From a virus (Duplodnaviria > Heunggongvirae > Uroviricota > Caudoviricetes), in the IMG/VR virus record IMGVR_UViG_2778261297_000008: a DNA stretch of 57,427 nucleotides; one strand, 5' to 3'. Positions 46,219 to 47,717 of this stretch are shown here, one piece after another (the stretch's first letter is position 1; every line of letters begins with the position of its first letter). The position numbers and the translations under genes are program-made. The notes beneath the pieces were generated by a model that saw nothing but the letters and a program-made list of their open reading frames with translations, ran no database searches and was not told the DNA's origin.

Positions 46219-46695
46219 TTGTTTTTAGAAATAATTGGTGGTTTAGCAAATGTCGCATCCATCTCGGGCATCACAGCTAAAGAGTTGATTCCATTTATAT
46301 CTGATCCGGATAAGAAACTGTTTGAGAAATATTTCAGTTATCTTGAAGGTAAAAAGGTTTTAACTGCACCATTCGATTCAGAGGTTTCCCAAGCAGTAAT
46401 CAAAAGCTTAGAATCAATCAAAGATAAAACAGAGCAACTAAGATTGGACATAAAATCCAAGCAAGCGCAACATTTAATATTAGATTTAATCCACACTCTA
46501 AGTCAAAATTTAATGTTATTATATAAGCATCAAAATTCGACAGATGAAGTACTTTTTTATAAATCTTTGCAAAAAGTACGAGTTAAATTTGCAAGAGTAT
46601 TATCTTTACTATGTTTTACGTATGAAGTCGATTTATCAAATCAACAAACTGATTTAGCTAGATTGGTGTTGGAACATGCTTACCGAGTAAGATAA
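46219..46695 (+). CDS. Uncharacterised 158-aa protein (TTG start after AGGAGG)
   Basis: ORF in AT-rich DNA with a strong SD; no assignable domain. Confidence 0.55.
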   Translation: MFLEIIGGLANVASISGITAKELIPFISDPDKKLFEKYFSYLEGKKVLTAPFDSEVSQAVIKSLESIKDKTEQLRLDIKSKQAQHLILDLIHTLSQNLMLLYKHQNSTDEVLFYKSLQKVRVKFARVLSLLCFTYEVDLSNQQTDLARLVLEHAYRVR

Positions 46696-46773
46696 AATTA
46701 CACGGCTAAATCTTCATAATGGGGCACTAACTACTTTGGAATGAACATTTAGCTTTACTATACATATAAATAT

Positions 46774-46790
46774 GGCCGCAAAATGCGGCC
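46774..46790. terminator. Hairpin between convergent genes (possible bidirectional terminator)
   Basis: GGCCGCA-AAA-TGCGGCC. Confidence 0.4.
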
Positions 46791-46796
46791 CATGAC

Positions 46797-47717
46797 TTAC
46801 TGCAAACCATAGTATTTCAGTGCAGCCTCCGTCAGAACTTTGGTTGCAACTGCCATCCCGACTTTCCAAGTCCCATCGGCAGCTTTTCTTATATTTGATG
46901 CAATCCAATTTTTTGCACCTTCCCCAAAAGGTTCTTCAGAACTTGATGGTGTTTCAGACGCTACAATCAGTGAGAAATCACGCGCATCTTCTTCAGAAAT
47001 ACCTGAATCTTTCAGATAGTTTGCTACCGATTCTTTATTGTGTGATTGTATGCTTACATTAATAGTTGATTCGCTGCCACCAGAGATGGCATTGCCAACG
47101 TTACCATAAATTATTTGTTGTGTTATTTGCTGTGCTTTTGATGCATTATCTTTATCCATACCTTGAGTACCAAAAGTGATGTGTGCTGCTGCGGGAATTG
47201 ATTTTTCAAATTCAATTGTTAATTCAAGAACTCTATTGCGAACGGCTTGTGAAATTTCTGATAGTGACACTACTGAAATATTTCCAGAGATATCATTACA
47301 AGCATAATCTGCATATATCTTCCCTTGTAGAAGAAGGATTAAATTTGACGCATTAATCCCCAAAGAACCACCTTTTGCGCTAACTTTAACAAGTTCGTCA
47401 ACAGCAGCAATGCTCTCTCTGACGGAGTAGTTATTCCAGCTATCATTTGCAAACGTTTTTATTAATATTGGTGGGATAGGCGCATTTTTTATACCAGAGC
47501 CAAAAGGGCCAGAAAACGTGCCTTTATAAGTTACTCCTACTATTCTGTAATCGGGAAGCACAGCATCCTGAGGATAGCCTTCCGATTCATGTTTGACCCA
47601 TTCTTCTAAATCGTTACTTCCTAATCTTGCTGCCAAGAGTCGGAGTTTGAGCAGTATTGGACCCAAGCTTGATCCATCTTGAACCACAGACTCTTGAATC
47701 TGATATAGCAGGGACAT
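46797..47717 (-). CDS. AbiTii-like N-terminal domain protein (putative abortive-infection protein), 306 aa
   Basis: N-terminus LGPILLKLRLLAARLGSNDLEEWVKHESEGYPQDAVLPDYR matches my recollection of the AbiTii N-terminal helical motif; SD GGAG. Confidence 0.7.
   Translation of the reverse strand: MSLLYQIQESVVQDGSSLGPILLKLRLLAARLGSNDLEEWVKHESEGYPQDAVLPDYRIVGVTYKGTFSGPFGSGIKNAPIPPILIKTFANDSWNNYSVRESIAAVDELVKVSAKGGSLGINASNLILLLQGKIYADYACNDISGNISVVSLSEISQAVRNRVLELTIEFEKSIPAAAHITFGTQGMDKDNASKAQQITQQIIYGNVGNAISGGSESTINVSIQSHNKESVANYLKDSGISEEDARDFSLIVASETPSSSEEPFGEGAKNWIASNIRKAADGTWKVGMAVATKVLTEAALKYYGLQ

What the first reader, a model, noticed from the sequence alone, without database searches (positions are those of the whole stretch)
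46219..47717. AbiTii-like protein convergent with an unassigned 158-aa protein
The 306-aa minus-strand protein begins with a motif I recognise from AbiTii-type abortive infection proteins, followed by ~240 aa of unassigned sequence that may be a novel effector domain. The 158-aa plus-strand protein is convergent, separated by a shared hairpin, and might be a functional partner (lactococcal AbiT is a two-component system).
Basis: partly seen in the sequence, partly recalled or inferred. Interest (0 to 1): 0.58.

Follow-up and report, generated by a model that had tools for sequence, protein, structure and literature searches.

The report
Two unrelated defence genes, side by side
The two convergent genes are real, but they are an AbiTii-family abortive-infection protein and a small DUF6650 (Thoeris ThsG-like) protein that sit together only in one recently spread 1.95-kb cassette, so they look like two independent single-gene phage-defence modules, not a new two-component system.

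Summary
Both ORFs exist at the stated coordinates, in a low-GC defence island at the end of an E. coli lambdoid prophage. The 306-aa protein is a clear AbiTii-family member. The Pfam domain covers residues 2-184, not just an N-terminal motif. A conserved ~120-aa helical C-terminal module follows, and it matches nothing known. The 158-aa protein is not unassignable: it is a divergent, minimal DUF6650 protein, the fold of ThsG, the effector of type VI Thoeris. No TIR partner was found nearby.

Comparative genomics argues against a functional pair. Of 56 species carrying 306-aa orthologues, only one (96% identical) has the DUF6650 neighbour, and no other neighbour recurs. In nine other contexts, DUF6650 relatives sit beside unrelated genes. 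Sister cassettes swap each half at one breakpoint (window 46736): DUF6650+HNH, and DUF4145(HEPN)+AbiTii. The genes converge, and the GC-rich terminator hairpin belongs to the AbiTii half.

Both families are already annotated in RefSeq, and a 158-aa E. coli DUF6650 protein is already a DefensePredictor candidate. This is an ordinary defence-island juxtaposition. Two points of modest residual interest remain: the orphan ThsG-like protein and the uncharacterised AbiTii C-terminal module.

The parts
45926..45940 (.). Left end of the 1.95-kb cassette: GCCAGGAGCGGACGT, an imperfect inverted repeat of the right end
   Evidence: The homology boundary falls at the same place in plasmid L011, Erwinia L012 and about 15 plasmids. 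It matches the reverse complement of the right end at 13 of 15 positions.
45941..46218 (+). Upstream region of the DUF6650 gene, carried inside the cassette (presumed promoter and RBS)
   Evidence: Conserved together with the gene in all cassette copies. An AGGAGG lies 8 nt before the TTG start. No consensus sigma-70 site was found here.
46219..46695 (+). 158-aa minimal DUF6650 (ThsG-like) protein: a four-helix bundle with a short hydrophobic N-terminus
   Evidence: The family-wide invariant residues K32, K45, E55, S63, K68 and R121 are all retained.
46704..46754 (.). AT-rich hairpin spanning the junction between the two modules; breakpoint at about 46736
   Evidence: RNA fold of 46690-46800 gives -24.5 kcal/mol, z = -3.9. 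L010 homology stops at 46736 and L076 homology starts at 46736. The native DUF6650 terminator hairpin seen in L010 is truncated here.
46774..46790 (-). Intrinsic terminator of the AbiTii gene (GGCCGCATTTTGCGGCC followed by a T-rich tail on the minus strand)
   Evidence: It is conserved in L076, which lacks DUF6650.
46797..47165 (-). C-terminal module of the AbiTii protein (aa 185-306) plus the stop codon: a low-confidence linker carrying the invariant QQIIYGNV motif, then four helices
47166..47717 (-). AbiTii domain (aa 1-184), alpha+beta
   Evidence: Pfam PF18864 at 151 bits over residues 2-184; PADLOC AbiTii at 123 bits. The AF2 model has pLDDT 65-88 over this domain.
47718..47861 (-). AbiTii upstream region, ending in the right-end repeat ATGTCCGCT (47853-47861; its remainder resumes at 49355)
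47862..49354 (-). IS110-family ISEsa2 inserted exactly in the right-end repeat of the cassette; not part of the system
   Evidence: L002 runs continuously from the equivalent of 47861 to 49355. Pfam finds DEDD_Tnp_IS110 and Transposase_20. RefSeq annotates it as ISEsa2.

Best explanation
These are two autonomous single-gene anti-phage modules. Recombination placed them tail to tail in a defence hot spot, and they have since spread together among Enterobacterales as a 1.95-kb cassette.

Module 1 is the 306-aa AbiTii protein, a self-contained abortive-infection-type protein.
- Shown: it carries an AbiTii domain.
- Inferred: that domain acts as the phage-sensing or regulatory part. The basis is analogy with lactococcal AbiT, and with AbiTii-HEPN fusions, where the domain sits N-terminal to the toxic part.
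- Inferred, mechanism unknown: the conserved, non-enzymatic helical C-terminal module is the output. It most plausibly works through oligomerisation or by binding a host or phage target. It is not a nuclease.

Module 2 is the 158-aa protein, a minimal DUF6650 four-helix bundle.
- Shown: it is homologous to the ThsG family and keeps the family-wide invariant basic, Glu and Ser residues.
- Inferred: like ThsG, it assembles into a ring and binds a small anionic ligand of the cADPR type, which arrests growth. It does this either on its own or in response to a signal made elsewhere.

Neither protein needs the other.
For: Family assignment.

AbiTii orthologues:
- They keep full length and 47-100% identity across many phyla.
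- Of 56 species loci, only Erwinia persicina (96% identity) has a DUF6650 gene within 5 kb.
- No neighbour family recurs in more than 4 loci.
- No Pfam family occurs in more than 2 of 101 flanking genes.
- In Kosakonia the gene sits beside methionine-salvage housekeeping genes.

DUF6650 subfamily members at 35-88% identity lie next to other genes. These are an HNH gene, a Septu-like ATPase+HNH pair, type I R-M, an RT+HNH pair, a DUF5677-like gene and unknowns. None lies next to AbiTii.

Module exchange occurs at one breakpoint:
- DUF6650+HNH in E. coli VTB97584v, within the same flanks.
- DUF4145(HEPN)+AbiTii on Citrobacter pK820-1.

Transcription and setting:
- The genes are convergent. The AbiTii gene has its own terminator, and the DUF6650 gene is followed by an AT-rich hairpin spanning the junction.
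- Defence-island setting: IetAS, a capH/capP-like pair, R-M, and Gabija-like AAA ATPase + UvrD-helicase genes (my reading of the annotation) nearby in the various hosts.
- Both genes are nearly absent from viral contigs, one hit each in 2.9 million.

Literature:
- ThsG/DUF6650 is the 2'cADPR-responsive effector of type VI Thoeris.
- AbiTi, not AbiTii, is the toxic half of AbiT.
- A 158-aa E. coli DUF6650 protein scores as a defence gene in DefensePredictor.
Against: The two genes do move together, with fixed ends, in at least four unrelated genomic contexts and about 15 plasmids. This would also be expected of a functional pair.

The sister cassette pairs AbiTii with a HEPN protein. AbiTii is fused to HEPN domains elsewhere, which hints that convergent neighbours could be trans effectors.

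No phenotype exists for either protein. No mechanism is known for TM-less ThsG proteins or for the AbiTii C-terminal module.

The AF2 model of the C-terminal half has only moderate confidence: pLDDT below 50 for residues 175-227 and 61-76 afterwards.
Confidence: 0.62

Rival explanations
1. The pair is a genuine two-component system with exchangeable parts. AbiTii is the sensor. The convergent neighbour is its trans-acting effector: DUF6650 here, DUF4145-HEPN on pK820-1. Infection sensed by AbiTii would release or activate the DUF6650 ring.
For: - The cassette has fixed ends and moves as a unit.
- The variants DUF6650+AbiTii, DUF4145+AbiTii and DUF6650+HNH share their ends and a central breakpoint.
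- AbiTii is fused to HEPN RNases in other bacteria.
- DUF6650 is a proven effector in Thoeris VI.
- Lactococcal AbiT needs two proteins.
Against: - The association is only as deep as about 94% nucleotide identity.
- 55 of 56 species orthologues have no DUF6650 and no recurrent partner, and some have only housekeeping neighbours.
- The genes are convergent and the AbiTii gene has its own terminator.
- The AbiTii protein carries its own conserved C-terminal module.
- In the DUF6650+HNH variant the swapped part is itself an effector-type nuclease, which does not fit a sensor/effector logic.
Confidence: 0.13
2. The 158-aa protein is an orphan type VI Thoeris effector. It depends on 2'cADPR (or a related signal) made by a TIR protein encoded elsewhere in the genome. 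The AbiTii gene is an unrelated neighbour.
For: - DUF6650 homology, with the invariant basic, Glu and Ser residues kept.
- ThsG responds specifically to 2'cADPR supplied in trans.
Against: - No TIR gene is annotated within 12 kb.
- None was detected by Pfam among the neighbours of ten subfamily contexts.
- The cassette spreads on plasmids into many hosts without a TIR, so dependence on a resident TIR would make it useless in most recipients.
- The rest of the genome could not be inspected.
Confidence: 0.12
3. One or both genes are not defence genes at all. They could be addiction, maintenance or accessory cargo of plasmids and prophages, or decaying passengers.
For: - No phenotype is known.
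- The cassette is often found beside plasmid replication regions.
- Truncated or IS-disrupted copies exist.
Against: - Strong purifying conservation of full-length proteins across phyla.
- Consistent defence-island neighbourhoods.
- The AbiTii and DUF6650 families both have experimental defence precedents.
- DefensePredictor log-odds of 6.5 for a 158-aa E. coli DUF6650 protein.
Confidence: 0.1

Closest known systems
Lactococcus lactis AbiT (AbiTi + AbiTii)
   Same: The 306-aa protein carries the AbiTii domain (Pfam PF18864, residues 2-184). The setting is abortive-infection or defence.
   Different: - There is no AbiTi-like partner.
- Lactococcal abiTi/abiTii are described as a bicistronic operon. 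Here the neighbour is convergent and belongs to DUF6650.
- By my recollection of Bouchard 2002, which I could not read here, lactococcal AbiTii is about 213 aa, essentially the domain alone. This protein adds a conserved 120-aa C-terminal module.
AbiTii-HEPN fusion proteins (c2405 and Ymh families; Anantharaman et al. 2013)
   Same: An N-terminal AbiTii domain is followed by a C-terminal output region in one polypeptide.
   Different: The C-terminal region here is not HEPN. There is no Pfam HEPN hit and no Rx4-6H motif, and the only His in it is not conserved. It is a short helical module with no known relatives.
ThsG, the DUF6650 effector of type VI Thoeris (bioRxiv 10.64898/2025.12.03.692087)
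   Same: The 158-aa protein is a DUF6650 member of similar size. It lacks TM helices, like some ThsG proteins, and keeps the family's invariant basic, Glu and Ser positions.
   Different: - There is no adjacent TIR (ThsB) gene here or in any examined context of the subfamily.
- It belongs to a rare, divergent gammaproteobacterial subfamily: 40 clusters at 50% identity among 1.84 billion representatives.
- Ligand binding and hexamer formation were not tested.
DefensePredictor single-gene system DS-27 'SMEK' (WP_087896215.1), reported as containing DUF6650
   Same: It is a single-gene E. coli defence system whose C-terminus was annotated as DUF6650 by HHpred (value 0.88 in Table S8).
   Different: hhalign of the subfamily profile against the SMEK sequence finds nothing (probability 0.1%). 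SMEK is therefore not a usable functional precedent for this protein.

Membership tests
AbiTii domain family (Pfam PF18864) | Significant full-length match to the AbiTii profile | tested here: met
   151.2 bits against a cut-off of 27.6, covering residues 2-184 and profile positions 1-178 of 189. PADLOC AbiTii gives 123 bits.
AbiTii domain family (Pfam PF18864) | Alpha+beta globular fold with a highly conserved glutamate (Anantharaman 2013) | tested here: met
   The AF2 model has three N-terminal helices, a beta-sheet and a long helix. E9, E39 and E44 are invariant in both alignments, of 14 and 42 sequences. Which of these is 'the' family glutamate was not established.
Lactococcal two-component AbiT system | An AbiTi partner (small toxic, endoribonuclease-like protein) encoded next to abiTii | tested here: not met
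   The only other gene in the cassette is a DUF6650 four-helix bundle. No PADLOC model matches it at E<=1. No direct comparison with an AbiTi sequence was possible.
Lactococcal two-component AbiT system | The two genes are co-transcribed as a bicistronic operon | tested here: not met
   The genes are convergent. An AT-rich hairpin and a GC-rich AbiTii terminator lie between them. Operon organisation of abiTi/abiTii as described in PMC3985639.
Lactococcal two-component AbiT system | Abortive-infection phenotype against phages | not testable with these tools
   This needs phage challenge experiments.
AbiTii-HEPN fusions | C-terminal HEPN domain with an Rx4-6H motif | tested here: not met
   Residues 185-306 have no Pfam hit at E<=1. 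The only His in them (SHN) has no Arg 4-6 residues upstream, and it is absent from the invariant and nearly invariant columns.
DUF6650 (Pfam PF20355) | Profile match to the DUF6650 domain | tested here: met
   - Pfam gives 25.6 bits, E 1.3e-5, just below the cut-off of 27.
- hhalign against nine Pfam-positive members gives 99.1%, E 6.8e-19.
- An HMM built here from those nine members gives 65.9 bits.
- RefSeq names it a DUF6650 family protein.
Type VI Thoeris (TIR + ThsG) | An adjacent TIR-domain (ThsB) gene that produces 2'cADPR | tested here: not met
   No TIR is annotated within 12 kb. No TIR was detected by Pfam or PADLOC among the neighbours in ten subfamily contexts.
Type VI Thoeris (TIR + ThsG) | ThsG homo-hexameric tube with basic inter-protomer pockets that binds 2'cADPR | tested here: inconclusive
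   Only a monomer model could be made: a four-helix bundle with pLDDT 83. The basic positions 32, 45, 68 and 121, plus E55 and S63, are invariant across the subfamily and canonical members. This fits a retained ligand site but does not prove one.

The most novel reading that the evidence does not exclude
Small TIR-less DUF6650 proteins and 306-aa AbiTii proteins could be interchangeable halves of a family of mix-and-match, tail-to-tail defence cassettes: [DUF6650 | DUF4145-HEPN] x [AbiTii | HNH]. These cassettes are bounded by short inverted repeats. The convergent neighbours would cooperate as sensor plus effector. In that case a ThsG-type effector would be driven by a non-TIR sensor.
Probability: 0.1. 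Interest if true: 0.65.

Novelty: new member of a known kind. Interest (0 to 1): 0.3.

Why it matters
The result mainly serves as a caution. Adjacency inside a defence island, even when two genes are mobilised together, is not evidence of a two-component system.

Two residual points could repay a small experiment.
- The 158-aa protein is a minimal ThsG-like DUF6650 that spreads on plasmids without any TIR. If it protects alone, the domain is not restricted to Thoeris signalling. That might also help explain how TM-less ThsG effectors act.
- The 306-aa AbiTii clade is widespread and strongly conserved. It includes a 53%-identical copy on a plasmid of Synechococcus elongatus PCC 7942. Its C-terminal module is uncharacterised and would be a new Abi output domain.

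Tried and rejected
- **Conserved partner for the AbiTii protein.** I fetched 56 species loci and ran HMM searches with the subfamily and canonical DUF6650 profiles. I also clustered all neighbours by all-against-all blastp and ran Pfam on 101 flanking genes. Nothing recurred.
- **Conserved partner or TIR for the DUF6650 protein.** I examined ten contexts with Pfam, PADLOC and NCBIfam on the neighbours. The neighbours were heterogeneous and included no TIR.
- **Phage-encoded anti-Thoeris sponge reading of the small DUF6650.** Rejected. There was one hit in 2.9 million viral contigs, none in GenBank phages, and no viral structural match.
- **Membrane-effector reading.** No 19-residue window reaches a TM-like Kyte-Doolittle score in either protein (maxima 1.12 and 1.45; the 1.6 threshold is from my own knowledge). 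The C-terminal helices are only moderately amphipathic. This reading is left open but unsupported.
- **SMEK (DS-27) as a functional precedent.** hhalign probability was 0.1%.
- **Regulation by the upstream HTH/M78 (capH/capP-like) pair.** Rejected as part of the unit. The pair is absent from every other copy of the cassette. It is separated from it by a terminator-like hairpin at 45625-45644 and is unique to strain EC09.
- **Known RNAs in the island.** Rfam finds only IS009 and traJ-II, both outside the cassette.
- **Primary AbiT papers.** Bouchard 2002 and Labrie 2012 are not held in the library.

Full report
**Setting**

The window matches the Escherichia coli EC09 chromosome. Identity is 100% over 46000-47900, with 3 mismatches over the 23.4 kb compared. 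Bases 1-42.4 kb hold a tRNA-Thr gene and a lambdoid prophage that ends in tail-fibre genes. From about 42.5 kb the GC content drops from about 55% to 35-45%.

This low-GC stretch is a defence island. In order it holds:
- a 410-aa unknown gene;
- an HTH plus M78-peptidase pair resembling CapH/CapP;
- the two genes of the finding;
- an IS110-family ISEsa2;
- IetA/IetS;
- a HigA antitoxin;
- conjugation remnants.

**The observation**

The 158-aa ORF at 46219-46695 (+) starts at a TTG 8 nt after an AGGAGG. The 306-aa ORF lies at 46797-47717 (-). They converge across 101 nt.

Both are real, conserved genes. The 306-aa protein has more than 1259 homologues. The 158-aa protein has about 58 clusters at 90% identity, or 40 representatives at 50% identity among 1.84 billion proteins.

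Three details needed correction.
1. The Pfam AbiTii domain covers residues 2-184 (151 bits, E 5e-44; PADLOC 123 bits). About 120 residues, not about 240, are therefore unassigned.
2. The 158-aa protein can be assigned: it is a divergent DUF6650.
   - Its own Pfam score is 25.6 bits, against a cut-off of 27.
   - A profile of its subfamily reaches proteins that pass Pfam DUF6650 at 35-69 bits.
   - hhalign between the two groups gives 99.1% probability, E 7e-19.
   - An HMM built here from those nine canonical members scores the window protein at 65.9 bits.
   - RefSeq already names it 'DUF6650 family protein' in some genomes and names its neighbour 'AbiTii domain-containing protein'.
3. The GC-rich hairpin at 46774-46790 has a T-rich tail only on the minus strand. 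It is also conserved in a cassette that lacks DUF6650. It is the AbiTii terminator, not a shared element.

**Are the two genes a system?**

Within Enterobacterales they travel together. A 1.95-kb segment (window about 45926-47861/47867) has identical boundaries in several settings:
- E. coli chromosomes at two different prophage ends;
- an IncFII plasmid;
- the Erwinia persicina chromosome;
- about 15 Klebsiella, Enterobacter and Serratia plasmids.

That association is shallow, no deeper than about 94% nucleotide identity.

I fetched 56 species-level loci that encode orthologues of the 306-aa protein (most full-length, 47-96% identity, from Gammaproteobacteria to Planctomycetes, Nitrospira and Actinomycetota).
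- Only the 96%-identical Erwinia copy has a DUF6650 gene within 5 kb. This holds with both the subfamily HMM and the canonical HMM.
- No other neighbour family recurs in more than 4 loci.
- No Pfam family occurs in more than 2 of the 101 immediately flanking genes.
- In Kosakonia (88% identity) the flanks are methionine-salvage genes.

Conversely, members of the small DUF6650 subfamily at 35-88% identity sit next to other genes, and never next to AbiTii:
- an HNH nuclease;
- a Septu-like ATPase+HNH pair;
- a type I R-M system;
- a reverse transcriptase plus HNH;
- a DUF5677-like protein;
- unknown proteins.

**The sister cassettes**

Two sister cassettes are the most telling evidence.
- In E. 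coli VTB97584v, the same flanks hold DUF6650 (88% nucleotide identity) followed by a co-directional HNH gene. Homology to the window stops at 46736 and resumes at 49355.
- On Citrobacter koseri plasmid pK820-1, the AbiTii half (homology from 46736 to 47867, 92.5% identity) faces a DUF4145 (HEPN-family) gene instead of DUF6650.

Each half is therefore exchanged independently at a single junction. In VTB97584v the DUF6650 gene ends in its own hairpin (GGGGGCACTAATCA..TGATTATGCTCCC). Its 3' arm is missing in the window, which suggests that the present juxtaposition is secondary.

These data favour two autonomous single-gene modules. They do not exclude a pair with swappable parts, which I keep as the main rival at about 0.13.

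**The 306-aa protein**

The whole length is conserved. The 42-sequence alignment has 76% mean column identity. Invariant features include the QQIIYGNV motif (198-207), EEPFG (261-265), and W271, N275, G282, W284 and Y303.

AlphaFold2 gives three regions:
- an alpha+beta N-terminal domain, pLDDT 65-88;
- a low-confidence linker, residues 175-227;
- four C-terminal helices, pLDDT 61-76.

The C-terminal module persists in plasmid-borne homologues at 22-30% identity. Two that matched only over the C-terminal half proved to carry divergent AbiTii domains. It may also exist alone as an unannotated 136-aa ORF on a 4-kb Acinetobacter plasmid.

From the literature:
- AbiTii is an N-terminal domain fused to HEPN RNases in other bacteria.
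- In AbiT, the partner AbiTi carries the endoribonuclease-like fold and, at least for the Coprococcus catus homologue, the toxicity; AbiTii showed no antitoxicity.

I therefore infer that the AbiTii domain is the sensing or regulatory part here, and that the C-terminal module is a non-nuclease output of unknown action.

**The 158-aa protein**

Six positions are invariant across the subfamily and canonical DUF6650 proteins: basic 32, basic 45, E55, S63, basic 68 and R121.

A December 2025 preprint shows that TIR+DUF6650 operons form type VI Thoeris. The DUF6650 protein, ThsG, responds specifically to 2'cADPR and is modelled as a hexameric tube with basic pockets. How TM-less ThsG proteins act is not known.

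In this window:
- no TIR gene is annotated within 12 kb;
- none was detected in any context of the subfamily.

A 158-aa E. coli DUF6650 protein (WP_010377994.1) is listed by DefensePredictor as a 'predicted novel defense gene' with log-odds 6.5. It did not turn up among the tables of tested units, some of which are truncated as stored. I did not verify its identity to the window protein.

The validated 'SMEK' system, reported as carrying DUF6650, shows no similarity to this subfamily.

Neither gene is typical of phages: each has one hit in 2.9 million viral contigs and none in GenBank phages.

**Verdict**

The proposed partnership is not supported.

Both proteins belong to families that are already named and already linked to defence. 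The locus would be labelled by standard tools. The juxtaposition is best read as ordinary defence-island shuffling.

Residual interest lies in three things:
- the TIR-less ThsG-like protein;
- the uncharacterised AbiTii C-terminal module;
- the neat modular architecture of the cassette, with its inverted-repeat ends that attract IS110-family elements.

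Noticed in passing
window 45926-45940 and 47853-47861 (+49355-49360); L011, L012, L002: The 1.95-kb cassette ends in a 15-bp imperfect inverted repeat: GCCAGGAGCGGACGT against ATGTCCGCTCCTCGC, matching at 13 of 15 positions. In Erwinia the right junction forms the hairpin GTCCGCT-N10-AGCGGAC. This suggests a discrete mobile or recombination-bounded unit without its own transposase.
   Followed up: partly
window 47862-49354; L076 about 5121-6300: Two different IS110-family elements abut the same right end of the cassette: ISEsa2 here and IS4321 on Citrobacter pK820-1. This is consistent with sequence- or hairpin-specific targeting of that repeat. Here the IS lies 145 nt upstream of the AbiTii start and reads towards it.
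   Followed up: partly
window 42502-43734 (-): A 410-aa hypothetical protein (WP_000162951.1 in EC09) carries a premature stop in the window, leaving the 304-aa ORF 42847-43761. This is one of only 3 mismatches to EC09 in 23.4 kb. It has no Pfam or PADLOC family. It is transcribed divergently from the capH/capP-like pair, so it could be the gene they regulate.
   Followed up: partly
window 43978-44077 and 45750-45849; 44416-45305: A 100-nt direct repeat (92% identity) brackets the HTH plus M78-peptidase (capH/capP-like) pair. The repeat is a fragment of the DinI-like region common to lambdoid prophage ends and is found in 3561 of 5426 E. coli genomes. The whole 42.4-45.7 kb block occurs in only one complete E. 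coli genome, EC09.
   Followed up: partly
window 50129-53613: An intact IetA (AAA ATPase, 258 bits to the PADLOC IetA model) and IetS (annotated as an S8 peptidase) defence pair lies immediately beyond the IS. In E. coli VTB97584v the same IetA is truncated by IS1.
   Followed up: no
L004 5623-6219 (Vibrio fluvialis); L003 1038-1832 (Shewanella); L068 4581-5420 (Rheinheimera): Unannotated proteins of 198, 264 and 279 aa lie directly downstream of small DUF6650 genes and in the same direction. The Vibrio protein contains an RDHLEH (Rx4H, HEPN-like) motif. The Rheinheimera protein weakly matches DUF5677. All are possible uncharacterised defence genes.
   Followed up: partly
L080 133-543 (Acinetobacter johnsonii pXBB1-1, 3978 bp): An unannotated 136-aa ORF resembles only the C-terminal module of the AbiTii protein: the YGN motif, STIN, and the terminal W...YYGI helices. 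This hints that the module can exist on its own.
   Followed up: partly
plasmid NC_007595.1 27983-28894 (Synechococcus elongatus PCC 7942): A full-length, 53%-identical orthologue of the 306-aa AbiTii protein sits on the large plasmid of a genetically tractable cyanobacterium. It could serve as a convenient second test system.
   Followed up: no
window 47775-47790 and 49974-49989: A 16-nt near-identical motif (AAAGTACTATGCCTAG / AAGGTACTATGCCTAG) lies upstream of the AbiTii gene and upstream of ietA, in opposite orientation relative to the two genes. It may be chance.
   Followed up: no
window 42132-42330 and 55549-55648: Rfam finds an IS009 RNA at the 3' end of the tail-fibre assembly gene, and a traJ-II cis-regulatory RNA next to conjugation-gene remnants at the far end of the island.
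   Followed up: no
L076 1-863 (Citrobacter koseri pK820-1): A 'SMEK domain-containing protein' lies 3 kb from the DUF4145+AbiTii cassette. This is the family of the DefensePredictor DS-27 system. The plasmid region is therefore itself a defence island.
   Followed up: no
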